Shown here piece by piece: positions 2,290-43,522 of a stretch of DNA of 64,000 bases (position 1 is its first letter; every line of letters begins with the position of its first letter). Source of the stretch: Polyangiaceae bacterium. GTDB lineage: Bacteria; Myxococcota_A; Polyangia; Polyangiales; Polyangiaceae. A program made the position numbers and the translations under genes. Location: the NCBI GenBank assembly GCA_050290545.1, contig JBNKHV010000211.1, positions 13,463 through 77,462 of the forward strand, read 5' to 3'. The notes under the pieces were generated by a model that did no database searches, was not told where the DNA came from, and saw only the letters and a program-made list of their open reading frames with translations.

Positions 2290-2835
2290 TCGAATTCCGC
2301 GACGTGCGAACACGCGCCCCGGAGGCGACGGCAATGTGCTCTGTCTGTGCGAGGGCGCGCGCTGGCGGTGACGATCGCCCGCCGCGTGGGTGCAATCGCA
2401 AGCCCGCCACCTGCGCGGGGGTGCCCGCTGGCGGCGACTGAGTGCCGAGTCCTTGCGAGGGCGCGCCGCCGAGATGTCGGTGCGCGCCTCGTTTCTGCGC
2501 AGGCTTGCCGGACAAGCGTGAATGCCAGGTTCAGTGGACGCGACAGGGTGCCAGGCAAGTGCGCACGCCAGGTTCAGTGGTGCGCAAGGGTACCGGCCAA
2601 GTGTCGACGCGAGGCCCGAGTCGTGCGCGAGCGTGTGTTGGAGGCGACGGTGGCGTGCCCGGTCAGTGCGAAGGCGCGCCGAGCTGCTGCGAGGGGCTCG
2701 CCGCGTTCCTGCAAAGGCGTGCCGAGTCGTTGCGTAGTGCGTGCCGCTTCTCTGCGAACGCCCGTCGGTCTTGTGCGAATGCCTGCCGCTTCTCTGCGAA
2801 CGCCCGTCGGTCTTGTGCGAACGCCCGTCGGTGGG
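2290..2835. repeat. degenerate tandem repeat array (~43-bp period) in intergenic DNA, with a near-perfect 37-nt unit duplicated at 2743-2779 and 2785-2821 and a partial third copy to 2831
   Basis: Recurring TGCGAA/TGCGAG/TGCGCA cores roughly every 40-45 bp. Exact repeats include gccaggttcagtgg at 2524 and 2567, and gccgcttctctgcgaacgcccgtcggtcttgtgcgaa at 2743 and 2785. The ORFs spanning this region on both strands (2059-2892 minus, 2218-3261 plus) translate to repetitive R/A-rich junk. Confidence 0.75.
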
Positions 2836-2898: not shown

Positions 2899-4582
2899 TC
2901 AAGGACAGACGAAGCGCTGGAGCATCGGTGGCGACGCGGGGGCGTCAGCGCCTGCGGTACCGTCGTAGGCGATGAAACCCAGCGTCCGGCCGTCGACCGT
3001 CACGAAGGGATCGCTGTCGGCCGCGCGACGGCCCGCGAGGTCGTGCACGATGGCGGGGTCAAAGTGAACCAACATGTCGCCGGTGTGGACCGCGAGTTGC
3101 GGCGTGGCATCTTCCTCCGAAAAACCGAACTCGACGAAGTCGGCGATCTGATCACCGTTTGCGTCCACCACGAATTGCAGCGGCAGGGCTACGCCGCCAC
3201 CCAGTTCACGATTGTCCAGTGGGAAGAACACGGGTTCGAGACCGCCGGCGTCGAGGAATGAGCCACCGGAGCGGAGCAACCAGTCGACCTCCGCCGTGTC
3301 GTTCGTGGTTTCACTCAGCACGGCCAAGAGTGGCGGCCCACGCAAGAATTGCGCGCCCCACAGACGGTGCACCCTCGTCGTCGCCACGCTGAGGGGCAGT
3401 GGGTCTTCGACGTTGCCCAGGCTCTCGACCCGCCAGCCATTCGTGTCGGCATCGTAAGTCTGGAGCCAGAGTCTGTCAGCGGAGTCGCTCACCCGTTCGA
3501 AGGCGAACTCCCCGTAGAAGAAGCCAGCGCCCTCGAAGCTGTCGTTCCCCAGCGACCAAGGGTAGGATTGTCCCAGAGTGAGTTCCGGCGCCGCTTCCGT
3601 CCCTTCGAAGATCATCACTCCGATCTCGGCTTCGATCGCCCCGTCCGGTGTTCGGTCGTAGCCCACCACCAGATCGGGTGCCTCGTCGCCGCTCACGTTG
3701 GCGACGCCGACCTTGACGATGGAGGCCCAGCCACCAAGCGTGCTTGGCGCGTAGCCGTGGACCAGGACTTGCTCGAAACCGGCTGGCGTGTTTCGCAGTG
3801 CGATGAGCCAGTTCGTTCCCTCTGCGACGAGGTCCGAAACCCCATCGCGGTCGAGATCCAACACATGTAGGCGACGCAGCTCCGGGCCCACTTCGGGGAT
3901 GGCGCAGCGTTCGTGGACGAAGCGCACCTCATCGCCGACCAGCTCAGAGACCCAGAGGTTGAACGGCTCCGTCTCGAGATCGCTGCCGACCGTGCGATAG
4001 AACAAGTCGCCGATCCCATCCAGGTTGACGTCATAACTGAACGCGAGGCGTTGCTCGTCCGTGGTGGTGTCGAGTTCGAGCAGCACGGGCTCGGAGAGCG
4101 ACGACAGGCAGCTTTGTCGTGTCCAATCGATCGGCGGCGACACGAAGCCAGTTGCGTCGCTGGCGCGCGTCGCACTCGGGTAGGCGCAGTGGCTCGGCTC
4201 GTCGCTGCTTGCGACTCCGGCATCAGTACTCGCCCCTTCGCCAGACGCTTCGCGGACCGAATCGCCATCGGTCACAGCAACGTCCGGGATTGCAGCTTCG
4301 TCGGGTTCGGGTGCTTCCGGGTCGTCATCGGTCGAGGGGGACTCTTCGGCACGGCTCGAAGCGGGCGGTCCTGCATCGATGGAGTTGGAGTTGGGCGCGC
4401 TGCCATCTGCCGCCCCACTTGCCGGTACCTCCAGGCTCGCGTCGGTGCAGCGCTTTCGAACACAGCGTTCGGCAGATGGACAGTCGTCGTCTGTTCGACA
4501 GCTGAGCCAGTTGCTCTCCCCACCCGTTTCGGCTGTTTGACCACCGCAGCTCACGACCAGCGCGAGAGCCTGCAACCACATG
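2899..4582 (-). CDS. FG-GAP/VCBS-like repeat lipoprotein with an N-terminal Cys-rich module
   Basis: Start ATG at 4582 gives MWLQALALVVSCGG (signal plus lipobox). The N-terminus has a CRTDDDCPSAERCVRKRC motif. After an acidic linker come repeated DLDRDGVSDLV / DANGDQIADFV / NLDGIGDLF motifs typical of FG-GAP beta-propeller blades. Confidence 0.75.
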
Positions 4583-4679
4583 GCGGGACGAAGCGTCCCG
4601 CGCGCTTTCGTCGAGCAGCTTCGGGTCGATGCGTTTCGCGAGGTCCGCGCGTTCGCGCTGTTGCTGGGTTGGGATCTCA

Positions 4680-5696
4680 TCATGTCTCCGAACTGTGCTC
4701 CTCGTCCTCCACCTCTTCGGGGCTGACATAGGTCTGCCCGACGTAGGCGGTGAAGCGACGTCGCTTCGTTTCGTCGGGTGCTCCGTGCGCTTGATTGTGC
4801 TGCTCGACGCGCTGTCGCAAGTCCACGGCTTGGGCACGCACGCGCTTCAAGAAGCCCGCCACTTCGTCGTGCAGGGGGTGATCGTCGGACACGTCGAAGC
4901 AGTAGGTGCTACCTCCGACCCAATCATCCGCGGACGAGCGCGTCTGCGCCGATTGAACCTTGCGACAAATCGCGGTGACGAGCGCTTGATAGTGGTCGAA
5001 GACGGCGGCCTCCCAGCCCTGCCGATCGCCAACAGGGATCAAGTAGTGGCTCGATTCGTAGCGCGCGGTCCCTTCGGCCTCCGAGACCTGGGCGCGACCG
5101 TCGGCGACCAACTGAGCGAGTGCCGCCTCCAGTGCCAGCTTGGGAGCGGGCACGGTTTCGTTCAGCGCCTGCGCATTGATGGGGCCGAAGCGATGGATCG
5201 CCACCCATAGCAGCGCAGCCAGACGCTCCTGATCGTCCGGGTCTTGGTGGGGTCGATCCTCTTCGGTGGTTGCCCGGTAACTCGTCGCATCACCTCGACC
5301 CGTACGCGTCAACAGCTGAGACTCCACGAGATCCGTCAACACTGCGCGCACCAGGGCGCTGTCGTCCCCGCTGAATCGCTGCAGCACCCGGGCCCGTAGC
5401 ACGGGTCCATGCTCCTGCACGAAGGCGAACACTGCTTCCCAGATCGACTGACCGCGGAAGGTTGCACTCTCCGACAGACGTTGAACGCGGTTGTGATAAG
5501 TGCGGAGCGCGAGACCGAACATGTCCGCGATCACCTTGTTACCGAGGCCCTGCTGTTTGAGCTCCTGAACCAGGCTGGTGAACACCTGATTGGCGGTACG
5601 CGCCAGCGGTGCACGAGTGCCCCCCGCCGTCGCCAACTGAGCGATCAGCACGGTGGTTTGGCGAACAATCGCGTCGATGAGGAGCGGGACATCCAT
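4680..5696 (-). CDS. putative DNA-binding protein with N-terminal Fis-type HTH (paralog of 39582-40568)
   Basis: 338-aa ORF. The N-terminal segment ADMFGLALRTYHNRVQRL matches the Fis-family HTH pattern (LGxSRxTLYRKLK-like). Additional helix-rich segments resemble winged-helix modules. Clear paralog further along the window sharing LATAGG, ADMFGL.LR.Y, WEAAVFDH, GGSTY and LRQRV..HN.AH blocks. Confidence 0.7.
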   Translation of the reverse strand: MDVPLLIDAIVRQTTVLIAQLATAGGTRAPLARTANQVFTSLVQELKQQGLGNKVIADMFGLALRTYHNRVQRLSESATFRGQSIWEAVFAFVQEHGPVLRARVLQRFSGDDSALVRAVLTDLVESQLLTRTGRGDATSYRATTEEDRPHQDPDDQERLAALLWVAIHRFGPINAQALNETVPAPKLALEAALAQLVADGRAQVSEAEGTARYESSHYLIPVGDRQGWEAAVFDHYQALVTAICRKVQSAQTRSSADDWVGGSTYCFDVSDDHPLHDEVAGFLKRVRAQAVDLRQRVEQHNQAHGAPDETKRRRFTAYVGQTYVSPEEVEDEEHSSET

Positions 5697-5832
5697 GGGC
5701 GGGGCACAGCCGAAGAGAATTACGCGCCCGAGTCACCTCGGACAGCGCTCGGGCTAGGCTCGAAGACTATGGGGCCCGCGCCTCACTCGGGAGTGAAAAA
5801 ACTGGCACGGCCACGGGGCCAGGTGCGGTGTC

Positions 5833-6354
5833 TCAGCCCGCTTTGGCGCACTGGCGCTCGTGCTCGACACGCATCGACTCGACCAGAGCGTCGAGTTCGC
5901 GTTCCGAGACGGTGGCCCGCTCGGTCGCACCGCCGCCGTCCAATCCGGATACCCAACGGCTGCTCTCGCTGACCGTCGAGAATATCTTCTGTGGGTACGG
6001 GTATCTGGCGACGAGCGAGATCAACGTCAGCGCCGAACGCACGGCTGCTGCCGCGAAACCAGTGCCTTCGACGACGTAGGAGACACCCCGGACCTTGTCG
6101 TTGTGGCGTGTCATCACTTTGCGAATTTCCGCCTTCGCTTCTTCCGATGGCGCGGGGGCCACTCGAGAAATCACGGTGTAAACCACGAGACTTCCACAGA
6201 GGCGTACGATCCTATCCGCCTCTGCTGCCCACGCAGCGAGGTAGATCGCCGAAGGTGGAGCCTTGGTGAACGTCACGATCACATCTCCAAGGGTTCGGAC
6301 GCAGTGGTCGTCATCGATGTAGACAGGTTCCGACGGATGCAGTTCGGTGCGCAT
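5833..6354 (-). CDS. hypothetical protein (173 aa)
   Basis: Clean ORF with coding-like composition, same strand as and upstream of the Fis-HTH gene (137-bp gap). No recognisable motif. Confidence 0.5.
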   Translation of the reverse strand: MRTELHPSEPVYIDDDHCVRTLGDVIVTFTKAPPSAIYLAAWAAEADRIVRLCGSLVVYTVISRVAPAPSEEAKAEIRKVMTRHNDKVRGVSYVVEGTGFAAAAVRSALTLISLVARYPYPQKIFSTVSESSRWVSGLDGGGATERATVSERELDALVESMRVEHERQCAKAG

Positions 6355-6485: not shown

Positions 6486-7808
6486 CTAGAGCGATGAGAG
6501 GAAACTCCACACTTCCTCGGGCATCCACGACGAGTTCTGTCCCGCGTCGTTGGGCAGTGGTGTGTGACCTCCATCGTAGGGGCACCACATGACGGGGTAT
6601 TCTTCCGCACACCCCTCGTACTGGGTGCACAGGTGCCCACCCGTGGGGGCGGCTGGTAGCGTCTCGACGTTGCAACCTGCCGCAACGGCGAATACTTCGG
6701 TCTGTCCCAGTTGACCTCCGCCACCACTTTCTTGTTGGCCCAGTGAGCCGAAGAACGGAATGGGCTCGCAGGTGGCGGGCGCAGCGATACCCCCGGCAGA
6801 GTGCGCGACTGCGGCAAGGAACACTCCCGGTCGCTGGCAGGCGAGCTCTCGCACCATGGCGCCCCCCTGACTGAAGCCCTGCACGACGACGCGCGCCGTG
6901 TCGATGCACAGATCGGCTTTCACCTGCTCCAAAATGTCGTCCACGAAAGTGATGTCGGTGTCGATGGACCAGCTTTGATCGACAGCTTCCGGCGCGATGA
7001 AGATCGTGCTTCCTTCGGACAGCTCATACAACCCGAGAAACGCCGGGTTGCCAGCGATGTTGGCAGGTGTGTTCCCGAAGCCGTGAAACCCCAAAATGAG
7101 CTGGTATGGGCGAGTTCTGTCGTAGTTCTCCGGCATGCGAAGCACGTAGCGCCGGGCCGTGCCACCGCTCATGACGGTGTTGTAGTTGTACATGTTGGTG
7201 GAGGGACTGTTCTGCAGCGTGGGCTCCGTACCGCAGCCCGACGATGTCGTCGACTCCTCCGGTTGCCCTTCAGGGACAGCCCCACCGACACCTTCTGGCA
7301 TTTCGTCGCCGGGAGCGCCAGCGGTGCCTTCCGGAGAATCGCCAGCTGTGCCACCTGCTCCTGCCACACCCTCCGGCGCAAGCGGAGTCGTGTCTGGATC
7401 TACCGCGCTCGGCTCGTCGGCGGCGCCCGCGGCATTCTCGCCAGCTTCGGCGTCGTTGGTCCCGTTCGTGGTGTCGGGCGCGCTTTGGGCTTCAGGTTCA
7501 CTGCCGTTCGTCGTGGGACTGTCGGACCCTGCCGCTCCGCCTGCCGTGGAAGTGCCTGGGCTCGACGGGCCCGCAGGCGCATCCGACCCTGCTGAACTCG
7601 CGCCCGCAGGCGCGGAAGCACTGACCGCGGCAGCGTTGACGCCACCACTCGAACCCATGGGCGTCGCGCCTCCCGCTCCAGCGGAGCTATCGGCGGCGTC
7701 GTCAGACGCGCACGCGAAGGCAAGTGTCGTCGGCAGTGCGGTGAGTGCTGCGAGCGCGACACGCTGCCAGCGATGCGTTCCTGAGAATGAAGGCTTGACG
7801 GGATACAT
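6486..7808 (-). CDS. secreted esterase lipoprotein, PHB-depolymerase/LpqC-like alpha/beta hydrolase
   Basis: Signal plus lipobox (LAFAC). A long Ala/Gly/Ser/Pro/Glu low-complexity linker precedes a C-terminal catalytic domain with LILGFHGFGN and a GxSxG nucleophile motif VVQGFSQGGAM, as in the PHB depolymerase / esterase_phd family. Confidence 0.8.
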   Translation of the reverse strand: MYPVKPSFSGTHRWQRVALAALTALPTTLAFACASDDAADSSAGAGGATPMGSSGGVNAAAVSASAPAGASSAGSDAPAGPSSPGTSTAGGAAGSDSPTTNGSEPEAQSAPDTTNGTNDAEAGENAAGAADEPSAVDPDTTPLAPEGVAGAGGTAGDSPEGTAGAPGDEMPEGVGGAVPEGQPEESTTSSGCGTEPTLQNSPSTNMYNYNTVMSGGTARRYVLRMPENYDRTRPYQLILGFHGFGNTPANIAGNPAFLGLYELSEGSTIFIAPEAVDQSWSIDTDITFVDDILEQVKADLCIDTARVVVQGFSQGGAMVRELACQRPGVFLAAVAHSAGGIAAPATCEPIPFFGSLGQQESGGGGQLGQTEVFAVAAGCNVETLPAAPTGGHLCTQYEGCAEEYPVMWCPYDGGHTPLPNDAGQNSSWMPEEVWSFLSSL

Positions 7809-8351
7809 GAGTCTCGACCTCGAGATGATTCATTGCAATGAGTGGCGCGTTTGGGGTTTACGACGGGGACGGGCAGAGTCCGGAATTTAGCATGCCAATA
7901 GGGGCGTTACGACTACCTGCGGTCCGACTGCTGCGTTCGCAACGGATCTTTCGCTCTGCCAATCCCGCGTGTCGAGCCGACAACCGTCATTGGACAACAT
8001 GCTGTCTTCCGTTTGGCGACTGAGCTAGACGCGTCTCGGGGGGGGCGTGAGCTTAGGTGGCGGGGCTCTCCAGTGGTCCGAGCAAGCCGCCTACGCGACA
8101 AACGTCGTTTCCATGCTGGCACACGCACGAAGTGTACGCTTACACAAATCCGATGCCCATTTGCGCGTCGACGCACGATACGACGGCGGGAGACAAGGGG
8201 AACGCCCGTCCAAAAATGCTCGAAGAAGACCGCGAAGGGCGTCAATCCACCAAACAGCGGCCGAGCTGCTGCTGGACGGGGTTGCGAGTTGTTGCGGGAT
8301 TGACTACTCGCAGGAGCTGTATTCTCCTAACACCGAGGGGCATCGAAGCGC

Positions 8352-10205
8352 ATGGTCAATACCGCTCCGTCTCAGTCTCAGTTCCACGACGCCGGCCGCT
8401 GGCCTCCGAGTCATCGCAGGCTGATCACGTCAAAGCTGGAAGCGCTGGCCACCGCTGCCGGTATTGAGCACATGCTTCCGAATGCGTTGGCGGCGCTGGA
8501 TGTCCTCGCAATGCCGTGGTTGGATTGGCCGGCGAACGGACGAACGCCTTGGGCATCGGATCTGACGGACGACGGCACGCCGCTGGAGTTCTCCATCAGT
8601 TACGACAGTCAGACCCCCGCGTTGCGCCTACTGACCGAGTCACAAGGTCCGGGTCGTGATCCGGCATCGAGTTGGAGCAATGGCCTGGAAGTGAACCGGA
8701 GACTTGCCTCCGACTTTGGTGCCGACCTGGAAGCCTTCGAGTGCGTGAGCCCATTGTTCACTCCAGCCTCTGAAGATTCGGGTTTTGCCATGTGGCATGG
8801 CGCGGTGCTCCAAGCTGATGGCCCTCCAGCGTTCAAGGTATATCTCAATCCGCGCCGTCATGGTCCGGAGCAGGCCCGTTCAGTCGTGGACGAAGCCCTG
8901 CAACGGTTGAAGCTGACGTCGGCTCAGCGTTTGGTGAGGGAGCTTCCCGTCGAATGGGCCACCTTCTACTTCTCGCTGGATCTCGGCTCGGCATTGGGCG
9001 GGCGGGCAAAGGTCTACCTATGCTCACCGAGCTCCACTCCGGCGTCGCTCGCCGCGGAATTGGACGCCTTGGGTCTTGCGCCTGCAGCGGAAGTAGAGAG
9101 CTGGTTGGCTCGGTTGTTGCGCGACCGGTCACCCCTGGAAAGTCGGCCAATACAGATGTGCTTGGCGTTTCGCTCTGGTCGGGACCTGCCGGAGCTCACT
9201 TTGCACGTTCCCGTGCGCAGTTACGTGAGTCACGACGCGGAGGCTCTGCATCTCGCTTGCCAGTGGTTGAGGCCCCACGACGCGGCAGCATTGACGGCAG
9301 GGGTCCAGGCCATGGCTCAGCGCCCGCTCGAAAGTGGTCGCTCCTTGATCAGCTACGTCTCTCTTCGTCCGCGGCCCGATCACCTGGGCGTGACGGTTTA
9401 TCTATCGCCGCAGCTCTACGCCGTTCCCCCGCCGAGGTGCGTGTCACTGGACAACTCGGTTAAGAGTAGCTCCTACGTGCGCGAGCTCGGCCCCAAGGCG
9501 CGAGGAGGAAGCACCCGGACGCTCCGCGCTCTGACCGATGAGATTGCGCGATGCAAAGAGCGATTGAGTCGTAAGCCGTTTCTTCGGCGGGTTCGACACG
9601 AGGGTACGCTGGCGGAAGCCAAAGGTGTCGTACGGCGGATGGCTTTCTGGGTGATGGGATTTCAGGATATCCTGCGCCTAGTGACGCGTTTCACGACGGA
9701 GCCTACGCTCACCCGCTTGGCTTGCACGCACGAAGCGGAGGACCGTGGCCACGACCACTGGTTCCTGCATGACCTCGAGCAACTCGGCTTGGCCGTGTCG
9801 CTGTCGGACGCCTTCGGCGACGACTCGGAAGTCGCGCGAGACACTGTCTACGGCCTGATCGCAGATGTGGTCAAAGCAGAGGACGATCGTGCCCGGCTGT
9901 GTGTCGTGCTTTCGCTGGAAGCTGCCGGTGTGGAGTACTTCGCGGCAACGATTGCCTTCCTGCAGCGTGTGGGAGTCGGAGACGGGTTGTTGTACTATGC
10001 CCGCTCCCACCAGACAGTCGAAGCCAATCACGACGTGTTCGAAGAGGATAAGCAGGCGGAGCTCGCGGCAATGCCTGTTTCAGAGACGGCATTCGAAGAG
10101 TGTCTACGAGTCATTCACCGCACTTTCCGGGCAATGGAGGTACTCGGAGAAGAGCTGTACGGCTGGCTCGAACCAGAGGTAGAAGGCGCGGGAGACGCCT
10201 CATGA
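8352..10205 (+). CDS. fusion protein: DMATS-type (ABBA-fold) aromatic prenyltransferase domain plus C-terminal heme-oxygenase-like (diiron-oxidase-type) domain
   Basis: N-terminal ~380 aa carry repeated K-x-Y-L strand-end motifs (KVYLNP, KVYLCSP, TVYLSPQLY) like the Lys/Tyr barrel residues of DMATS indole prenyltransferases. C-terminal ~220 aa are helical with clustered metal-ligand-like residues (HEAEDRGHDHWFLHDLE, then SHQTVEANHDVFEED), as in HO-like diiron enzymes / the 'iron-containing redox enzyme family'. Its stop overlaps the next start (ATGA at 10202-10205). Confidence 0.7.
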   Translation: MVNTAPSQSQFHDAGRWPPSHRRLITSKLEALATAAGIEHMLPNALAALDVLAMPWLDWPANGRTPWASDLTDDGTPLEFSISYDSQTPALRLLTESQGPGRDPASSWSNGLEVNRRLASDFGADLEAFECVSPLFTPASEDSGFAMWHGAVLQADGPPAFKVYLNPRRHGPEQARSVVDEALQRLKLTSAQRLVRELPVEWATFYFSLDLGSALGGRAKVYLCSPSSTPASLAAELDALGLAPAAEVESWLARLLRDRSPLESRPIQMCLAFRSGRDLPELTLHVPVRSYVSHDAEALHLACQWLRPHDAAALTAGVQAMAQRPLESGRSLISYVSLRPRPDHLGVTVYLSPQLYAVPPPRCVSLDNSVKSSSYVRELGPKARGGSTRTLRALTDEIARCKERLSRKPFLRRVRHEGTLAEAKGVVRRMAFWVMGFQDILRLVTRFTTEPTLTRLACTHEAEDRGHDHWFLHDLEQLGLAVSLSDAFGDDSEVARDTVYGLIADVVKAEDDRARLCVVLSLEAAGVEYFAATIAFLQRVGVGDGLLYYARSHQTVEANHDVFEEDKQAELAAMPVSETAFEECLRVIHRTFRAMEVLGEELYGWLEPEVEGAGDAS

Positions 10206-36634: not shown

Positions 36635-38461
36635 ATGACGACGACTCGGCTGTCATTTCTACTCTTGCTTTCTCTTTCTTGGTTCGCAGCCAGCTGTGAA
36701 GAGCTGCCCTTGAGGTCGAGCGCGCCTGATTCACGGGGTGTCGCGACCGATGACACGAGCGCACCGCGCGACGGGATTGACGCCGGGCCTCACACCGACT
36801 CGGACGACTCCCGCTCCGGCGACGGAACTTTAACCGGTGATCTGGGCACAAGTGAGTCGCAGCAGAGCGATTCCGATCAGGACGCGTCCGAGGTCGCGGC
36901 GTCCGACCCACGTGATACTGAGCAGGACGGTCCCCAGGGGAACGACTCGGACACGACCGATGCCGGCGACGCCGACGTCGATGACACGAGCCACGGCGTG
37001 GCTGACGCAGGCAGCAGCGGTGCCAGCGAGGTGAACGAGTCCGAAACTGGCGATTCGAGCTCATCGGAGACGGTCGACCCGCAGACCCCTGCACGAGGCG
37101 ATGGCAACGTCGAAGCCAAGGACCCACCGCCGTCGATCCCCATCGCGTGTGAAGAATATTGGCCCGGATACGAGTGTGAATTCTCTCGGAACGCCTTCAG
37201 AAAGCGTGCTCTCGACGCCTTGTGGGAGCAGTGTGGTGACTGCCACAGTGACTCCGAAGGGGGTGTCCCTCCGTTCTTGACTGATCACATCCTGGGGCAC
37301 GACGCCGCCTTGCCGCACATCACGCTCGACGACTTGGCTGCGTCGCCGCTGCTGCAAATGATTAGAGACGGGCATTACTGTGAGGAGGACTGCTACGAAA
37401 AGGCCGACCGGATCAAACAAGGCCTCAGGGATTGGCAATCACGTTTTCCAACGAGGGAGCGGCGGCTCGCTGAGTTGGAGACTGCGATGGCGCGCTGGGC
37501 GGACGCCGGCATCGAGGACTACCAGTGGACAATCGAGAACGTGTGCTCGGCCTGCTTCGACACCTTCGACAATCACGCCCTCGCCGTCGTCTCTTCGAAA
37601 CAACTGGTGTCTCTTCGACTCGGGCCGGTCCTCGAGATCCCGGGTGCGTCTGTGGAGCCGACGTTTCGGCGCCCGTGGTACACGGTCGCGGGACTCTTCG
37701 AAACGATGCGCACAGTTATCGACCTAGCCGTCGACGACCTCACGGTTTCATACGATTCTAGCTACTGGTACCCCAAGTCGGTGACGGTCGACTTCACCAG
37801 CGAGTGGCTCGACGACGAGCACTACTACGAAGTCCGCGACTTCCTTGTGCTCGGGGCAGGTTACTGCGAGGAGCAGGGCGCCTTTCGGTCGGACGCAGCC
37901 ACACTGCAGGCGCAGGGCTGTGCTTCGACTCAGGATTGCGACAGCTGCGCCCCACGCCAGCCGTATACGGTGTGTGGCGGCTTGTACCGACGCTGCAGCG
38001 TGGACGCGGACTGTCGCGCGGGGAGCGTCTGTGTGGACTACGGCGGGGAGGGGTGCGCGAACCTCGGCAGCTATTGCAGGCTAGATTGCACCGAGGACCC
38101 TTGCCCAATGGGTTACGGCTGCGACGGTGAAACCGGACACTGTGTGGAACTCCAGTGCACTGGCGCGCCCGAGCTTTGCGTCGACAGAGACCATTGCCAA
38201 CCCGGCTCCCCCAAAGCCGATCGCCGCGGCTGTGTTCCCCCTTCGTGCGATGAGGGTGCCATCGATTGTGGGTCGTGGGCGCGCTGTGATCCCACATCGG
38301 TGATGGCGATGGCGGATGGTTGCGCGCCGCTCGATTGCGTGAGCGATGGCGACTGCGGTTGTGGCAGCTGCGTCAACGGATTCTGTGCGGCAGCACCGGG
38401 CTTGTGTCTCTCCTGGTCGAGCCCCGAAGAGTCGCCGGAGCCGGGTCCGCCGCCAGACTGA
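36635..38461 (+). CDS. secreted lipoprotein with acidic linker and C-terminal myxobacterial-type Cys-rich repeats
   Basis: MTTTRLSFLLLLSLSWFAASC (lipobox). A D/S/T-rich acidic linker is followed by a central domain with CxxC pairs. The C-terminal ~180 aa hold repeated C-x-x-D-x-D-C...C...C modules (CSVDADCRAGSVC, CVDRDHCQPG, CVSDGDCGCGSCVNGFC). Confidence 0.75.
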   Translation: MTTTRLSFLLLLSLSWFAASCEELPLRSSAPDSRGVATDDTSAPRDGIDAGPHTDSDDSRSGDGTLTGDLGTSESQQSDSDQDASEVAASDPRDTEQDGPQGNDSDTTDAGDADVDDTSHGVADAGSSGASEVNESETGDSSSSETVDPQTPARGDGNVEAKDPPPSIPIACEEYWPGYECEFSRNAFRKRALDALWEQCGDCHSDSEGGVPPFLTDHILGHDAALPHITLDDLAASPLLQMIRDGHYCEEDCYEKADRIKQGLRDWQSRFPTRERRLAELETAMARWADAGIEDYQWTIENVCSACFDTFDNHALAVVSSKQLVSLRLGPVLEIPGASVEPTFRRPWYTVAGLFETMRTVIDLAVDDLTVSYDSSYWYPKSVTVDFTSEWLDDEHYYEVRDFLVLGAGYCEEQGAFRSDAATLQAQGCASTQDCDSCAPRQPYTVCGGLYRRCSVDADCRAGSVCVDYGGEGCANLGSYCRLDCTEDPCPMGYGCDGETGHCVELQCTGAPELCVDRDHCQPGSPKADRRGCVPPSCDEGAIDCGSWARCDPTSVMAMADGCAPLDCVSDGDCGCGSCVNGFCAAAPGLCLSWSSPEESPEPGPPPD

Positions 38462-38508: not shown

Positions 38509-39585
38509 TCACTCGGTGCGGTAGTCTTCGACCGCGCCAACATCCCCGCAGACGTCGGCACGCAGTGCGTTTCTCACGTGGCCTGCCACGTTTGCGACGT
38601 GATCCGGCGTGCAGAGCTCAGCGGCCAAGTCCGGGTAGTAGCAGACGGACTGCCCGCGACCGTAGTTGGGCGAGTAGACGCAGCCCGTGCCGGTATCGTC
38701 GGGGCCTTTGGGCCACCCCAACGCATCGTCGACGCCGTACACGTTGGCTCGCGCGTAGAAGTCGCAGCCACCTGGATCGCCCGTGTTATCGTAGACGTAG
38801 CAGTCTCCGATGCCTGTGGGCCCGATGCCGACGACCGCGTCGAAGATCTCTTCGTCAGTGAGTTCGAGGGCGAGGCGTTCTGCTGCTGCGGCCGTGTTCG
38901 AACCCCCATCGAGAGACGAAGCGCCACTCACGTCGCGCCCCTCCGTATCGACGGCAGCGGCGTCTAGCGTTTCGGGTACTCCCGCGTCGAGTTCGACGTC
39001 CGCGGTCCCGGTTGCGGGTTCTTCCGTGCCAGCACCGGCCGGGCCCGACGCACGTTGGCCGCCGTCCGAGGCTTCACTACTTTCGGTGGAGCCAACTCGG
39101 CTGCCGGGCGACGCAGCATCGCCCGGTTCTGAACTTGCGCCCGAATCAGCTCGGGCCTCGGTCGCGTCGTTCGTCTCATCAGGTAAACGCAGTGCGGTCG
39201 AAGCGTGCTGACAGATGCCTCGACTGCAGATCAGGTCTCCATTGCCTACCTCGGAGCAGTCAGAGTCCTCGGTGCACACTAGCGCGCAGATGCGTCGACT
39301 GTTGCAGTCCGCGAAGCTCGCTTCCACGCACTCGATGTTCGTACCGAGCGATTCGCACGCTTGATCGCCAGAGCATCGCTCCGTGCAGACCCCACATTCG
39401 CACGAGAGGTTATCGGGGCAGTCAGCATCCTTCGCGCACATGGACATGAAGTGGGACTCACTGTCGGCACCACCACCGTCGGACCGCGTACTGGCGCCGC
39501 AGCCACAGAAGAGGGCACTTCCTAGTGCGAGTAGTGCGGTCAGGCGTTTGACACAGCGCCCACGGTGGCGTGCAATCGCGATCAA
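38509..39585 (-). CDS. Cys-rich secreted lipoprotein (partner of the Fis-HTH paralog)
   Basis: MIAIARHRGRCVKRLTALLALGSALFCGCG (lipobox). The N-terminus has CAKDADCPDNLSCECGVCTERC and CTEDSDCSEVGNGDLICSRGIC modules. A Gly/Ser/Ala-rich linker precedes a C-terminal Gly/Asp/Tyr-rich domain. Its start overlaps the stop of the upstream gene (39582-39585). Confidence 0.7.
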   Translation of the reverse strand: MIAIARHRGRCVKRLTALLALGSALFCGCGASTRSDGGGADSESHFMSMCAKDADCPDNLSCECGVCTERCSGDQACESLGTNIECVEASFADCNSRRICALVCTEDSDCSEVGNGDLICSRGICQHASTALRLPDETNDATEARADSGASSEPGDAASPGSRVGSTESSEASDGGQRASGPAGAGTEEPATGTADVELDAGVPETLDAAAVDTEGRDVSGASSLDGGSNTAAAAERLALELTDEEIFDAVVGIGPTGIGDCYVYDNTGDPGGCDFYARANVYGVDDALGWPKGPDDTGTGCVYSPNYGRGQSVCYYPDLAAELCTPDHVANVAGHVRNALRADVCGDVGAVEDYRTE

Positions 39586-40568
39586 CTCTCGGGCTCCTCG
39601 GGGCCCGTGCTCGGCACCACCAGCTGTCCTCCGTAGAACGTGACGCGGTAGGTCTGCTCAGGCTTTTCGTGTGCTTCGTTGTACTGTCGCACCCGTTGGC
39701 GCAGCTCACTGGCGGACTGCCGAAACCTGTTCAACTGCCCGAGCACATCCGCCTCCATTGGGTGGCCGGGCCACACCTCCAGGCTGTACGTGCTTCCACC
39801 GGTGCCTGTCGGGGGCTCATCTCCTGGCTTGAGACGCGCCGTGACCGTCCTGATCACGGCTTCGATGTGGTCGAAGACAGCTGCCTCCCAGCCGTGAGAG
39901 GCTTCGGCTGCCACCGCGAACTCCTTCGCCAGATAGCGAGGGTTCTCTGGATCCTGCAGCAGCTCGACGCGGCCCAGCGTCAACAATCGGTCGAGGGATT
40001 GTTCCAGGTGAGGCGTGCGCACGAGTTCCTCGAGTTCCGTGCGACAGAGCGGCCCCAATCGGTAGATGAGCGCCCAGATGACCGAATCCAGACCTTCGTG
40101 ACTGTCGCTCCAGCCGAGTTCGGCGAGCTCCTCGGCTGTGGGCGGGCGGTACGTGGTCGCGTTGCCTTCGCCGCAGCGGATGACCAGCCCGCTCTCACAC
40201 AGATCGCGCAACACGCCTGCCAACAGATCCGGGTCGTTGCCTCCGAACTTCTCGTAGAGGCTCGCGCGTGACACGTGCTCGTGTTGACTCACGTGCTCCA
40301 GCACTGCTTCCCAAAGCGAGCGGCTCGGGGTCGTCTCCGACCCTGCCAACCGTCGGATCTTGCGCAGGTACGAACGCAATGGCAGGCCGAACATGTCGGC
40401 GCCGACTTTGCGGCTCACGCCAGCGCGCGAGAGCTCGTCAACCAAGCCCAAAAACACCTGCCGTTCCACCCGCATCAGCGGAGCGCGCAGGCCGCCCGCG
40501 GTTGCCAACCGGGCAACTAGCCGCGTCATCTCGCGAACGACCGCGTCGACTAGCAGCTCTGCATGCAT
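39582..40568 (-). CDS. putative DNA-binding protein with N-terminal Fis-type HTH (paralog of 4680-5696)
   Basis: By alignment with the paralog the start is MHAELLVDAVVREMTRLVARLATAGGLRAPL (ATG at 40568). The track ORF to 40643 adds 25 aa. It shares ADMFGLPLRSYLRKIRRL (Fis-type HTH), WEAAVFDH, GGSTY and LRQRVRQYNEAH blocks with the paralog. Confidence 0.7.
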   Translation of the reverse strand: MHAELLVDAVVREMTRLVARLATAGGLRAPLMRVERQVFLGLVDELSRAGVSRKVGADMFGLPLRSYLRKIRRLAGSETTPSRSLWEAVLEHVSQHEHVSRASLYEKFGGNDPDLLAGVLRDLCESGLVIRCGEGNATTYRPPTAEELAELGWSDSHEGLDSVIWALIYRLGPLCRTELEELVRTPHLEQSLDRLLTLGRVELLQDPENPRYLAKEFAVAAEASHGWEAAVFDHIEAVIRTVTARLKPGDEPPTGTGGSTYSLEVWPGHPMEADVLGQLNRFRQSASELRQRVRQYNEAHEKPEQTYRVTFYGGQLVVPSTGPEEPES

Positions 40569-41116
40569 CGTCTCGAACCGAACATCCCTGACTCTGGGAA
40601 CGCCCAGGTGCCGCGCAATGTTGCACACGCCAGAACGATTCACCAGAGGCGCGGCACCCCATCCGGCGTGTCGGACGAGCCTTCTCGCGCTGCTCGATCT
40701 CGATGATTGTGGCAGTCGCCGAGACGCGAGCGTGTTCGGAAGTCAGCAGCTTTTGCGCGCCCGTGCCCACTGGAGCCCGGGCCGGCGATAGCGCCGACCC
40801 ACCCTGGATGGGGTGCTGTCCAGGGCCGTTTCTTCCGACCTTTTCGTGCCGTTCGGGACTCGTCGGGCTACGTCTTCCTGCCTGAGACACCCCCTCGCTC
40901 TGCGGCCTCGAGTCTTGGCGTACCAGTGACGTTTGGGTCATCCCCGCGCTGCAGCAACGCAGAGCCAGTCGGGGCACGCGGTTCGGAGCGCTCGCGGGTG
41001 ATGTCGGGCTGTGATTGGCAGCGTATCAGCGCACGAAGTCACTGAGGGGATTCATCGGTTGGATTCGTCCGAAGAGAGCACAGGCCATACCGACGAATTG
41101 GTCTAGGGTCGCCATC

Positions 41117-41793: not shown

Positions 41794-43443
41794 TCAGTGC
41801 GGGTTGCACGGATTCGCCTGGCAATCCGGGCACTCACCGAGCCGAAACAGGATCTCGTCCAGTTCGCAAGTCGGGAGGTTGTCGTTGGTGTGGATGGTGA
41901 TGGCTGTGCCGAGATCGGTCAGTGCGGGCAGACTGTGAATGGTCCAGAGCTCGGGGTTCTTCCAGAACGCAACCATTTCTGCGCTCTCGAGTGCCGGCAT
42001 CTCCGCAGAGAAGGCTCCCGAGTTTTCGTGCACGTCGATGGCGCTCGCCCAGTTCAAGAGAGGCATGTCGATGACGGACAAGTTCTCGTTGAACGCCACC
42101 GTGATCCCCGTCTCGTAGTCGTTCGGAGTGCCGGCGGTTTCGAGCACGGGGCAACTGACGACCAACGAATCCGTCGCCGAGGAACCGTTCATTTCTATCG
42201 ATAGACCGCCGTCGATGGTGCGCACGGCGGGTAGCACCGCTTCGGACAAGCTGGCGTTGTCGGCGATGGACAAGTCGTGAACCGAGGTCACGCCTGACAG
42301 TGCCGCGACGCTCGTGAGTAGCTGGTTGGAGGCAATGCTTCCGTCCTGCACGTCGGTGAGCGCCCCGAGCCCATCGAGCGTCTCGAGCGCGTCGTTCCAT
42401 TCCACCGCCAATGTCCCGCCAACGGTGCGCAGCGCGTTCAGCCCCACGAGCGAGGTCAACGTTCGGTTGACAGTTATCGTCAGGTCGCCCGAGACGTGCG
42501 CCAAGTTGTTCAACCCAGATAGCGTATCGAGGTTGCGACTTCCGGTGAGCACGACGTTTTCACGATAGGTCAGGCTCTCCAGTCCTTGCAGGGAATCGAG
42601 GCCGTTGGAGTTGAGGATCAGGTCACCCATTCCAAACTGCAGGTCCTCGAGTGCGGACAGCGAGCGAATGTCGGTGCTCTCGAGCTCGAGAGTCCCTCCG
42701 AGGAACTCCAGCTGCTCCAGTCCTGCGAGCGACTGGAGGTCTCCCGACGAGCGAATCGCCAAGTCGCCAGCGATCCGCTCGAGACCGTCCAACCCCGAAA
42801 GATCGACCAAGCCCCCGAGCGCTTCGAACACGAGCGAGCCTTCGATTCTTTGCAACCCCTCCAACCCAGTGAGGCTGGTGACCTGCTCACCCGAGACGAA
42901 TAGCGTGCCCGGTAGGGAGGTGCAGCCCAGTGCGCCGAATTTCCAGACGTCCTCGTCCGAACGCAGATACAGCGTATCGGTGAAGCCAGCGTTGGCGGGG
43001 GATACGGTGGATAGGCTCTCTGCGCTGCAGGCTTCGTCTGCCTCGCTCGCTGACGCCTCGTCCGCGGCATCCATCGAACCCTCTTCTGACGGTTCCTCGT
43101 CGCCCGTCAGCTCGGTGTCATCAGCTTGGGACTCGCTCGCTTCGTCGTCCGAGTCCCACTTTCCTTCCTGGTCACTGCTCGGCGATTCGCTTGCCCCGCT
43201 CCCTTCCGAGCCATCGTTCGAGCTCGTGTCCGACGAGTCCTCGGCGGAGCTCCCCATGGACGTTTCGCTGTCCCACGTTCCGGATCCCGTGTCCGGTGCG
43301 TGGTCTTCGTCGGGCATCGTGTCTGGTTGCCCACCGCACGCAGTGGTGCCGGCGAATGCCAGGATGAGAGCGACGCTCCGGTGAGCGGAACGGCGGATTG
43401 GCTCCAAAAGGAGAACGGAAGCGCTACGAGTGTCTGAGTCCAT
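41794..43443 (-). CDS. lipoprotein with leucine-rich-repeat / receptor-L-domain-like solenoid repeats
   Basis: ATG at 43443 gives MDSDTRSASVLLLEPIRRSAHRSVALILAFAGTTACGG (lipobox). An acidic Ser/Asp/Glu linker is followed by more than 12 repeats of ~22-24 aa (LxGLxxLxxIxGxLxIxxNxxLxSLxG). The C-terminus is Cys-containing (CELDEILFRLGECPDCQANPCNPH). Confidence 0.75.
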   Translation of the reverse strand: MDSDTRSASVLLLEPIRRSAHRSVALILAFAGTTACGGQPDTMPDEDHAPDTGSGTWDSETSMGSSAEDSSDTSSNDGSEGSGASESPSSDQEGKWDSDDEASESQADDTELTGDEEPSEEGSMDAADEASASEADEACSAESLSTVSPANAGFTDTLYLRSDEDVWKFGALGCTSLPGTLFVSGEQVTSLTGLEGLQRIEGSLVFEALGGLVDLSGLDGLERIAGDLAIRSSGDLQSLAGLEQLEFLGGTLELESTDIRSLSALEDLQFGMGDLILNSNGLDSLQGLESLTYRENVVLTGSRNLDTLSGLNNLAHVSGDLTITVNRTLTSLVGLNALRTVGGTLAVEWNDALETLDGLGALTDVQDGSIASNQLLTSVAALSGVTSVHDLSIADNASLSEAVLPAVRTIDGGLSIEMNGSSATDSLVVSCPVLETAGTPNDYETGITVAFNENLSVIDMPLLNWASAIDVHENSGAFSAEMPALESAEMVAFWKNPELWTIHSLPALTDLGTAITIHTNDNLPTCELDEILFRLGECPDCQANPCNPH

Positions 43444-43522
43444 GCCAGGCACCGTAGCTGAGCTCTCCAACCCCGACGGGCGAAAATATCTTCACCCGAG
43501 TGCCGGCAAGCGCGCTGTTCTT

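What the first reader, a model, noticed from the sequence alone, without database searches (positions are those of the whole stretch)
2899..5696. Duplicated two-gene module: Fis-type-HTH protein immediately upstream of a Cys-rich secreted lipoprotein (copy 1)
The 338-aa gene 4680-5696 and the 328-aa gene 39582-40568 are clear paralogs, sharing the blocks LATAGG, ADMFGL.LR.Y..++RL, WEAAVFDH, GGSTY and LRQRV.Q.N.AH. Each is followed within 0-100 nt, on the same strand, by a lipoprotein carrying C-x2-D-x-D-C-P...C...C modules. The two downstream lipoproteins are not detectably alike outside those Cys modules, being FG-GAP here and a Gly/Asp-rich domain in copy 2. Conserved pairing of a regulator-like protein with different secreted Cys-rich cargo suggests a modular regulator/effector or chaperone/cargo system that I cannot assign to a described family.
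Basis: seen in the sequence. Interest (0 to 1): 0.65.

Follow-up and report, generated by a model that had tools for sequence, protein, structure and literature searches.

The report
Self-regulating regulator plus variable lipoprotein cassette
The two gene pairs are real copies of a widespread but undescribed cassette in Polyangia (myxobacteria): a DNA-binding protein that almost certainly binds a palindrome in front of its own gene, co-translated with a lipoprotein that has a conserved cysteine-rich "handle" and an exchangeable outer domain.

Summary
The two regulator-like genes, 4680-5696(-) and 39582-40568(-), are paralogs (42% identity, E 2e-82). Each overlaps the start of a downstream lipoprotein gene by 4 nt.

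The regulator family is large: at least 1279 clusters at 50% identity, all about 330 aa. It has no Pfam or NCBIfam model, is confined to Polyangia/Myxococcota and occurs at 7 or more copies per genome.

In two independent locus sets, 75/81 and 58/68 regulator genes are followed directly by a lipoprotein with one conserved N-terminal module: E-T-[NH]-[WF]-L plus up to 8 Cys. The C-terminal cargo is unrelated between loci (propellers, MIDAS adhesins, pectate lyase, serpin and others).

New here is a 16-bp palindrome, GTGC-N8-GCAC, upstream of the regulator gene in 74/82 loci. A -10-like hexamer lies 23-24 nt downstream of it, usually 6-10 nt before the start codon, which suggests leaderless mRNA. 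Half-site bases co-vary with residues 63 and 68 of the predicted recognition helix: Arg68 goes with G in 18/18 half-sites, His/Leu68 with T, and Gln68 with T or C.

Best reading: an autoregulated, translationally coupled expression cassette for tethered extracellular proteins. The physiological role is unknown.

The parts
5793..5808 (-). Copy 1 operator: 16-bp palindrome GTGC-CAGTTTTT-TCAC. The full 25-mer PWM match is 5787-5811.
   Evidence: This is the only strong PWM hit in the whole window (score 25.0). The same motif is found upstream of the regulator gene in 74/82 loci. Sequence read.
5764..5769 (-). Copy 1 -10-like hexamer TAGTCT, 23 nt downstream of the TCAC half-site. No recognisable -35 hexamer. 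Here it lies 67 nt before the ATG, so copy 1 probably has a leader of about 60 nt, unlike most family members.
   Evidence: A YAnnnY hexamer sits 23-24 nt after the right half-site in 56/72 loci, against 0-5 at nearly every other offset. Sequence read. The transcription start is inferred, not measured.
4680..5696 (-). Copy 1 regulator gene A (338 aa). Predicted domains: N-terminal four-helix HTH domain (recognition helix about residues 62-74, LALRTYHNRVQRL), two tandem winged helices (85-142 and 153-214), and a C-terminal helical domain with invariant motifs WEAAVFDH, GGSTY and HP.
   Evidence: (AF2 model, mean pLDDT 79.9).
2899..4683 (-). Copy 1 lipoprotein LA (594 aa): signal peptide, lipobox VVSC (Cys46), N-module, acidic disordered linker, and a C-terminal domain with a weak FG-GAP-like signal.
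   Evidence: The ATGA overlap with gene A is read directly from the coordinates.
4441..4524 (-). Copy 1 N-module, short 4-Cys form: GGESNWLSCRTDDDCPSAERCVRKRCTD (residues 54-81 of LA).
   Evidence: HMM hit E 9.7e-11. Invariant columns C62, C68, C74 and C79, and nearly invariant E56, W59 and L60, in a 62-member alignment.
39582..40568 (-). Copy 2 regulator gene B (328 aa from the ATG at 40568; an in-frame GTG at 40643 would give 353 aa). It is a divergent paralog with an unusual recognition helix, LPLRSYLRKIRRL (Pro63, Leu68).
   Evidence: Its closest relatives in metagenomes are no more than 50% identical.
38509..39585 (-). Copy 2 lipoprotein LB (358 aa from the TTG that overlaps the stop of B): signal peptide, Cys-rich N-module, Gly/Asp/Ser/Glu-rich linker, and an orphan C-terminal domain.
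   Evidence: The search found only the protein itself and one 87%-identical ortholog among 8000 word-sharing candidates from 5.8 billion proteins. That 360-aa ortholog covers the full length, which supports the upstream TTG start.
39307..39471 (-). Copy 2 N-module, 8-Cys form of the ETHFL subtype: SESHFMSMCAKDADCPDNLSCECGVCTERCSGDQACESLGTNIEC...
   Evidence: HMM hit E 1e-11. The ETHFL subtype is shared with 58 soil-metagenome loci.
40613..40628 (-). Copy 2 candidate operator, degenerate and uncertain: GTGT-GCAACATT-GCGC, which contains the perfect 10-bp palindrome GCAA-CA-TTGC.
   Evidence: The PWM scores only 4.8. Sequence read. The spacing to any -10-like hexamer does not fit the family geometry, so this part is tentative.

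Best explanation
Each copy is a self-contained, three-part expression cassette found in Polyangia.

1. A 16-bp palindromic operator (GTGC-N8-GCAC) abuts a promoter that has a -10-like hexamer 23-24 bp downstream and no recognisable -35 hexamer.
2. A cytoplasmic protein of about 330 aa follows. Its N-terminal helix-turn-helix, probably as a dimer, reads that palindrome and so controls its own operon.
3. A lipoprotein gene is translationally coupled to the regulator gene through overlapping stop and start codons. Its product is exported and lipid-anchored. It carries a conserved disulfide-rich N-terminal module, then a disordered acidic linker, then a cargo domain that differs from cassette to cassette.

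Shown here: the pairing, the operator with its fixed geometry, and the residue-to-base co-variation.

Inferred:
- The regulator acts as an activator. The palindrome centre lies about 43-44 bp upstream of the inferred transcription start, and there is no -35 hexamer.
- Most transcripts are leaderless.
- Divergence of operator and recognition helix partly insulates paralogous cassettes from one another.
- The N-module is a common anchoring or presentation handle.
- The two winged helices and the C-terminal domain receive an unknown signal or partner.
For: - Paralogy: E 2e-82.
- Family size and uniform length.
- Linkage: 75/81 genome loci and 58/68 metagenome loci. In the reverse direction, 75/78 module-bearing ORFs follow a regulator gene.
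- No other gene is conserved at positions -4 to +4.
- Junctions: 42/70 have a 4-nt overlap and 16 more have other overlaps of 20 nt or less.
- Operator: present in 74/82 loci, usually 29-33 nt from the start codon. Only about 20 independent extra matches occur in 1.66 Mb scanned on both strands.
- -10-like hexamer: at offset 23-24 in 56/72 loci, and 6-10 nt from the start codon in about 40.
- Unbiased scan of all 338 alignment columns: the residue best associated with half-site position 2 is H68Q (p 1e-7, 7 lineages). The residue best associated with position 4 is A63S (p 1e-5, 8 lineages).
- Combined sets of 114 loci: Arg68 goes with G in 18/18 half-sites (6 lineages, p 9e-25), His68 with T in 111/118, Leu68 with T in 8/8, Gln68 with T 43 and C 41. 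Ala63 goes with C in 88/130; Gly63 never goes with C.
- In the second set, operators were located with a pattern that leaves positions 2 and 4 free.
- Cargo: 61 lipoproteins fall into 32 unrelated clusters. Cargo homology is retained when regulators are 70% identical or more and lost below about 60%.
- Cargo types are extracellular.
Against: - There are no expression, binding or localisation data. The transcription start, and therefore both 'leaderless' and 'activator position', are inferred from a -10-like hexamer alone.
- Co-variation counts are not fully phylogenetically independent. The R65S / G-to-C case is a single clade.
- Copy B in this window lacks a convincing operator (score 4.8), and copy A carries an atypical leader of about 60 nt.
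- The strongly conserved wH-wH-C-terminal part (two thirds of the protein) has no assigned role.
- The regulators stay 40-60% identical while the cargo is unrelated. That fits a common signal better than cargo-specific sensing, and leaves open why each cargo needs its own regulator.
Confidence: 0.62

Rival explanations
1. Escort or chaperone model. The winged-helix protein binds the nascent conserved N-terminus of the pre-lipoprotein and hands it to the export machinery. Any DNA binding is secondary.
For: Translational coupling would place the two products together. The regulator subfamily and the N-module subtype track each other: A-type with ETNWL, B/soil-type with ETHFL. The function of the wH-wH-C-terminal region is unassigned.
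Against: The conserved N-module lies after the signal peptide and has 4-8 Cys, typical of an extracytoplasmic disulfide domain. Residue-to-base co-variation demonstrates a DNA-reading role for the HTH. Tracking of subtypes is equally explained by co-duplication of the unit.
Confidence: 0.1
2. Polymorphic lipoprotein toxin system of the SitA type. The lipoprotein is a delivered toxin with a conserved N-terminal delivery domain and variable toxic C-termini. The upstream gene is an accessory or immunity-like factor.
For: Both have the layout of lipobox, conserved N-terminus and variable C-terminus, with several copies per genome, in the same phylum. SitA is described in PMC8546572.
Against: SitA escort domains are about 375 aa, the toxins are nucleases, and an immunity gene follows (PMC8546572). 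Here the N-module is about 55 aa. Cargo matches are adhesins, propellers, pectate lyase, serpin and Kazal domains, with no nuclease or toxin family. No conserved downstream gene exists. The conserved partner is cytoplasmic and reads DNA.
Confidence: 0.05
3. The palindrome is read by another factor, such as an alternative sigma factor or a global regulator. The winged-helix protein does something else on nucleic acid, for example acting as an AlkZ/YcaQ-like repair protein or a nucleoid protein.
For: The best multi-domain structural and Pfam similarities are to AlkZ/YcaQ-type tandem winged helices: Foldseek E 3.6e-5, and AlkZ-like in 26/45 members. The conserved GCACTA lies where a -35 element would be.
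Against: The AlkZ-like hit of protein A is below Pfam's cut-off (21.2 against 25.9 bits). It covers only profile positions 89-228 of 329, and TM-scores are about 0.2. Symmetric half-site changes occur (GCGC/GCGC, GTCC/GTCC, AGGA/GGGA). Co-variation with residues of the adjacent gene's own HTH is hard to explain if another protein binds.
Confidence: 0.08
4. A stochastic or mutually exclusive surface-variation system. Each cassette is a positive-feedback bistable switch, and cross-binding among paralogous regulators makes cells display different subsets of tethered proteins.
For: There are many paralogous cassettes per genome, with both shared and diverged operator classes. MAG SZUA-265 carries GTGC/GTGC, GCGC/GCGC and ATGA/GGGT types. 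The inferred activator position implies positive autoregulation. The cargo is variable and surface-type.
Against: This is entirely inferential. The sign of regulation is unknown, there are no single-cell or expression data, and surface exposure of the lipoproteins is not established.
Confidence: 0.15

Closest known systems
SitA polymorphic lipoprotein toxins of Myxococcus (sitBAI cassettes; PMC8546572, PMC5562445)
   Same: Both are myxobacterial and multi-copy. Both are lipoproteins with a family-defining conserved N-terminal region followed by modular, exchangeable C-terminal domains, and both have an accessory gene immediately upstream.
   Different: The SitA escort domain is about 375 aa, the C-termini are nucleases, and an immunity gene follows; SitB is an envelope accessory protein. 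Here the N-module is a Cys-rich domain of about 55 aa. The cargo is non-toxin and no downstream partner is conserved. The upstream gene encodes a cytoplasmic DNA-binding protein with its own operator.
Fis / NtrC-type C-terminal DNA-binding domains (Pfam HTH_8)
   Same: The AF2 model has four helices: two long ones followed by a short HTH at the end of the domain. The motif G-N-K-x-x-A-x-x-F/L-G-x-x-R-x-T/Y resembles the Fis/NtrC HTH. hhalign and hmmsearch align residues 57-73 to Fis 78-94 and residues 41-72 to an NtrC-family DNA-binding domain. The target is a palindrome with an A/T-rich centre.
   Different: The similarity is not significant: hhalign probability 0.4%, E 0.14, and PDB hit E 0.76. 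HTH_8 is not among the 25 Pfam families listed of the 30 that match 45 members. The domain is N-terminal and followed by two winged helices, an architecture not known for Fis or NtrC proteins (from my own knowledge of those families).
AlkZ / YcaQ (HTH_42, Pfam AlkZ-like) tandem winged-helix DNA glycosylases
   Same: Both have tandem winged-helix repeats. This is the best Foldseek multi-domain hit (9zd6, E 3.6e-5) and the most frequent sub-threshold Pfam hit, in 26/45 members.
   Different: Only the middle of the AlkZ profile is matched (positions 89-228 of 329). Protein A scores 21.2 bits, under the 25.9-bit cut-off, and TM-scores are about 0.2. The N-terminal region, which holds the catalytic motif in AlkZ/YcaQ (from my own knowledge), is replaced here by the four-helix HTH domain.
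Dedicated regulator plus surface lipoprotein loci repeated many times per genome, such as Bacteroidota polysaccharide utilisation loci (an analogy from general knowledge)
   Same: Paralogous loci each pair a locus-specific regulator with exported or lipid-anchored proteins of varied function. Pectate lyase and adhesin cargo occur here.
   Different: There are no SusC/SusD homologues. The regulators are of a different type and highly similar to one another. The unit is only two genes, and no substrate link is known.

Membership tests
Fis/NtrC-type HTH (Pfam HTH_8, PF02954) | Significant match to the family profile or to Fis/NtrC DNA-binding domain sequences | tested here: not met
   HTH_8 is not among the 25 Pfam families listed, of 30 that match the 45 members at E<=0.01. 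hhalign of a 55-sequence N-terminal profile against E. coli Fis gives probability 0.4%, E 0.14. The best PDB hit to an NtrC-family domain has E 0.76.
Fis/NtrC-type HTH (Pfam HTH_8, PF02954) | Four-helix domain whose last two helices form the HTH, with the last helix reading a palindromic site as a dimer | tested here: inconclusive
   The AF2 model shows helices at 3-24, 28-48, 53-59 and 64-74 (pLDDT 58-78 in this region). Base co-variation maps to residues 63 and 68 in the last helix. Dimerisation was not tested.
AlkZ-like / HTH_42 DNA glycosylases (PF06224) | Full-length match above Pfam's gathering score, including the N-terminal catalytic region | tested here: not met
   Protein A scores 21.2 bits against a 25.9-bit cut-off and matches profile positions 89-228 of 329 only. 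26/45 members hit at E<=0.01, and protein B has no hit. Foldseek TM-scores are about 0.2.
BlaI/MecI/CopY repressors (Penicillinase_R, PF03965) | Protein of about 120-140 aa with one winged helix plus a dimerisation domain, matching above threshold, with a partner sensor-protease gene | tested here: not met
   Protein A scores 15.8 bits against a 22.6-bit cut-off. The protein is about 330 aa with a different architecture. No conserved neighbour other than the lipoprotein exists. One public record nevertheless carries this name (P0061).
SitA polymorphic lipoprotein toxins | C-terminal toxin (nuclease) domain and a cognate immunity gene immediately downstream | tested here: not met
   The cargo families found are serpin, SBBP propeller, MIDAS adhesin, PelZ, Kazal, Big_2 and similar, with no toxin family. 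No conserved gene occurs at +2. The definition is taken from PMC8546572.
SitA polymorphic lipoprotein toxins | One of the six escort-domain families of about 375 aa | not tested
   No SitA sequences were compared directly. The conserved region here is only about 55 aa, which is incompatible in length.
Bacterial lipoproteins (signal peptidase II substrates) | N-terminal signal peptide ending in a lipobox [LVI][ASTVI][GAS]C | tested here: met
   Read from the sequence. LA has ...LALVVS-C46; most family members have canonical boxes such as LVAC, AIGC or GAAC. LB has a less canonical LFCG-C29. No dedicated predictor was available.
Myxococcal Cys-rich repeat families (TIGR02232 myxo_disulf_rpt, TIGR04201 Myxo_Cys_RPT) | Match of the N-module to these repeat models | tested here: not met
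   LA and LB have no NCBIfam hit at E<=1. Only 1 and 2 of 62 full-length lipoproteins hit these models. The isolated N-modules give only weak Pfam hits to DUF7107, Squash, WAP and Dickkopf_N.
Known anti-phage defence systems (PADLOC-DB) | Any component matching a defence-system model | tested here: not met
   There is only a 0.035 E-value partial hit for A, and none for B, LA or LB.

The most novel reading that the evidence does not exclude
Polyangia carry a large set of partly orthogonal regulator/operator pairs with a simple, readable recognition code: residue 68 reads half-site base 2 and residue 63 reads base 4. Each pair forms a positive-feedback, leaderless, two-gene switch that decides whether one particular tethered extracellular protein is displayed. 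Together the cassettes would give individual cells different surface or secreted repertoires, for predation, adhesion or kin recognition. The conserved Cys-rich N-module would be the common docking or sorting handle for a so far unknown envelope partner.
Probability: 0.15. Interest if true: 0.8.

Novelty: new variant of a known kind. Interest (0 to 1): 0.6.

Why it matters
The analysis defines a large protein family with no curated model: at least 1279 clusters at 50% identity, thousands of sequences, and 7 or more copies per genome. It also supplies its obligate partner domain, its cis-element and a candidate amino-acid-to-base recognition code, all from sequence alone.

This gives Polyangia, a poorly cultured predatory group rich in secondary metabolites, a testable regulatory unit for dozens of extracellular proteins per genome. 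It could also provide a natural set of related but distinct transcription factor/operator pairs for synthetic biology.

Public annotation currently calls these genes hypothetical or mislabels them as BlaI/MecI or ScpB. It also mis-starts at least one of the lipoproteins.

Tried and rejected
- Pfam, NCBIfam and PADLOC scans of all four proteins found nothing above threshold.
- A sequence-profile search of the PDB with the full family gave nothing below E 0.18. With the N-terminal 80 residues, the only hits below E 0.3 were spurious matches to designed helical repeat proteins.
- A protein database search with the 65-aa N-module profile found a single hit, because the query was too short for the word index.
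- A search with full-length LB found only the protein itself and one ortholog.
- I looked for a third conserved gene (immunity, transporter or sensor) at positions -4 to +4 and found none.
- I considered sigma-54 and ECF-type promoters for the upstream motif by eye. The order and spacing of the conserved bases do not fit, and the symmetric co-variation argues for a dimeric transcription factor site.
- I tried to define the operator of copy B. Only a degenerate candidate was found, and its spacing to a -10-like hexamer does not match the family.
- Three literature searches found no description of the family.
Full report
**Observation**

The window has 63% G+C. Its best public matches are Polyangiaceae MAGs, with 95-96% protein identity at loci L002 and L003. 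Both gene pairs are present as described.

- Gene A, 4680-5696(-), encodes 338 aa. Gene B, 39582-40568(-), encodes 328 aa.
- They align end to end at 42% identity, E 2e-82. tblastn finds no third copy in the window.
- Each regulator gene's stop overlaps the start of the next gene by 4 nt. LA is 2899-4683 (594 aa, ATGA junction). LB is 38509-39585 (358 aa, TTGA junction).
- By BLASTP, LA and LB share only the signal peptide and first Cys block (E 8e-4).

**The regulator family**

No Pfam, NCBIfam or PADLOC model reaches threshold for A or B. The weak hits are to assorted winged-helix families, most often AlkZ-like (26 of 45 members, sub-threshold and partial).

- The word-indexed search of 5.8 billion proteins returned 3741 relatives or more. 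Nearly all are unnamed, about 330 aa long and 55-60% identical to A.
- The exhaustive profile search found 1279 clusters at 50% identity (584 at E<=1e-30). Nearly all of the top 150 are about 330 aa or shorter fragments, so no fusions are evident.
- In GTDB representative genomes, 145 loci were confirmed. The best 80 are all from MAGs labelled Polyangiaceae, Sandaracinaceae, Myxococcales or similar.
- Individual MAGs carry several copies. SZUA-265 has at least 7 and A1A2.bin.35 at least 5.

The AF2 model (mean pLDDT 79.9) has these parts:

- two long N-terminal helices plus a short HTH (residues 53-74);
- two tandem winged helices (85-142 and 153-214);
- a C-terminal helical region that carries the invariant WEAAVFDH, GGSTY and HP motifs.

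The 'Fis-type' label is not supported statistically: hhalign against Fis gives probability 0.4%, and the NtrC-family DNA-binding domain hit has E 0.76.

**The pairing**

In 81 genome loci with room downstream, 75 regulator genes are followed at once by an ORF that matches an HMM of the lipoprotein N-terminal module. Conversely, 75 of the 78 module-bearing ORFs in about 830 kb follow a regulator gene. The other three are a second lipoprotein in the same operon. In the window, the HMM hits only LA and LB.

An independent set of 80 metagenome loci gives 58 of 68. These were retrieved with copy B, come from soil and rhizosphere samples, and are no more than 50% identical to B.

Junctions overlap by 4 nt in 42 of 70 cases, and by another amount up to 20 nt in 16 more. 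No other gene family is conserved at positions -4 to +4.

**The lipoprotein**

The layout is signal peptide, lipobox Cys, a short spacer, the conserved module, usually a low-complexity acidic linker, and then the cargo.

- The module reads G-[GS]-E-T-[NH]-[WF]-L-x2-C-x2-D-x2-C-x3-5-C-x-C-G-x-C-T-x2-C plus three further Cys.
- LA has a short 4-Cys version. LB has the ETHFL subtype seen in the soil set.
- The module matches no curated family.
- Cargo regions of 61 proteins fall into 32 unrelated clusters. Cargo homology persists when regulators are 70% identical or more, and is essentially gone below 60%.
- Recognisable cargo includes MIDAS adhesins, pectate lyase PelZ, SBBP/LipL53 propellers, delta-60 repeats, a serpin, and Kazal, Big_2 and receptor-L domains.
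- In the word-indexed search of 5.8 billion proteins, LB's cargo matched only one ortholog.

Upstream of the regulator gene lies a palindrome, GTGC-N8-GCAC(TA).

- A PWM finds it in 74 of 82 loci. In 47 of them, the end of the 25-mer PWM match lies 29-34 nt from the start codon.
- In 1.66 Mb scanned on both strands there are 124 matches at score 12 or more. Of these, 74 are these sites, and most of the rest are the same sites read on the other strand.
- A YAnnnY hexamer lies 23-24 nt after the right half-site in 56 of 72 loci, against 0-5 at nearly every other offset. Its 3' end is 6-10 nt from the start codon in about 40 loci.
- This implies transcripts that start at or next to the start codon, with no recognisable -35 hexamer, and a palindrome centred roughly 43-44 bp upstream of the inferred start.

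In the window, the only strong match is 5787-5811(-), with score 25. Its hexamer TAGTCT is at 5764-5769. In this lineage the ATG is 67 nt further on, so copy 1 is probably leadered. Copy B has only a degenerate candidate at 40613-40628.

**Who binds the palindrome**

Half-site variants are often symmetric: GCGC/GCGC, GTCC/GTCC and AGGA/GGGA. A scan of all 338 alignment columns was made without prior choice of residues.

- The substitution best associated with C at half-site position 2 is H68Q (p 1e-7, spread over 7 lineages).
- The substitution best associated with A/T at position 4 is A63S (p 1e-5, 8 lineages).
- The only G-to-C change at position 3 occurs in the one clade with R65S.
- All three residues lie in the predicted recognition helix.

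In the independent soil set, operators were located with a pattern that leaves positions 2 and 4 free. It matched 44 of 76 regions, against about 3.5 expected. The combined table for 114 loci is:

| Residue | Base at the paired half-site position |
|---|---|
| Arg68 (position 2) | G in 18/18 half-sites (9 loci, 6 lineages; p 9e-25) |
| His68 (position 2) | T in 111/118 |
| Leu68 (position 2) | T in 8/8 |
| Gln68 (position 2) | T 43, C 41 |
| Ala63 (position 4) | C in 88/130 |
| Gly63 (position 4) | A 42, G 20, T 4, never C |

This is strong indirect evidence that each regulator reads the palindrome in front of its own gene through the N-terminal HTH. Within one genome, both shared and diverged operator classes coexist. 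Both cross-talk and partial insulation are therefore possible.

**Interpretation**

The conserved and co-duplicated unit is operator + regulator + N-module. The cargo is exchanged or diverges beyond recognition.

The most economical mechanism is an autoregulated bicistronic cassette. Activation is favoured, because the site abuts a promoter without a -35 hexamer, but this is not shown. The lipoprotein would be made in step with the regulator, exported, lipidated and held by a disulfide-rich handle and a flexible linker. The roles of the two winged helices, the invariant C-terminal motifs and the N-module remain unknown.

**Comparison with known systems**

- SitA toxin cassettes share the modular lipoprotein logic. 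They differ in N-domain size, cargo type, immunity gene and the nature of the upstream gene.
- Membership of Fis/NtrC, AlkZ/YcaQ and BlaI/MecI families was tested and not met.
- Three literature searches found no description of the family.

**Verdict**

It is an undescribed family-level cassette built from familiar parts (an HTH autoregulator and a modular lipoprotein), so I rate it a new variant of a known kind. Interest is moderate to high because it comes with a concrete, easily tested operator and recognition code.

Noticed in passing
window 2738-2832: A 42-bp tandem repeat (2.1 copies, 95% match; also read as 21 bp x 3.8) lies in the intergenic region just downstream of the LA stop codon. 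Its function is unknown; it might act as a terminator or a repeat element.
   Followed up: partly
window 43474-43498 (-) and 7872-7896 (-): Two weak operator-like PWM matches (scores 13.3 and 12.9). Each lies just upstream of another lipoprotein gene (41794-43470 and 6486-7808) on the same strand and close to a cassette. The number is about what chance predicts (roughly 1.5-4 per window), so they may mean nothing.
   Followed up: partly
window 8352-10205 (+) and the genes after it (L001 2169-6246): A 617-aa protein with a Trp_DMAT (aromatic prenyltransferase) domain and a weak Haem_oxygenas_2 hit is followed by an FAD_binding_4 oxidase and a methyltransferase. This looks like a small prenylated-indole type biosynthetic cluster next to copy 1.
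   Followed up: no
window 38509-39585 (-): The public NCBI protein for LB is 312 aa and starts at the internal ATG (Met47), inside the conserved N-module, so it lacks the signal peptide. A 358-aa form and a 360-aa ortholog support the TTG start that overlaps the stop of gene B.
   Followed up: yes
window 36635-38461 (+): A 608-aa Cys-rich putative lipoprotein is convergent with LB. It has many C-x-C/D-C-type repeats but does not match the N-module HMM, and no regulator gene sits upstream. Cys-rich secreted proteins are therefore common here beyond the cassette.
   Followed up: partly
L004 5884-5908 and L006 1010-1034: Two related loci carry a second, high-scoring copy of the operator (scores 25.9 and 24.8) about 35-75 bp upstream of the proximal site and scoring best on the opposite strand. 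This could be a divergent promoter or a cooperative second site.
   Followed up: no
L015 7584-8390, L016 5884-8937, L046 8185-9693: Three cassettes carry a second lipoprotein gene with its own N-module directly after the first, giving tandem cargo genes under one regulator.
   Followed up: partly
window 5833-6354 (-): A 173-aa ORF with no Pfam hit on record lies between the esterase-like lipoprotein gene and the copy 1 operator. It is conserved only in the closest MAG relative (L002) and is not part of the family-wide cassette.
   Followed up: partly
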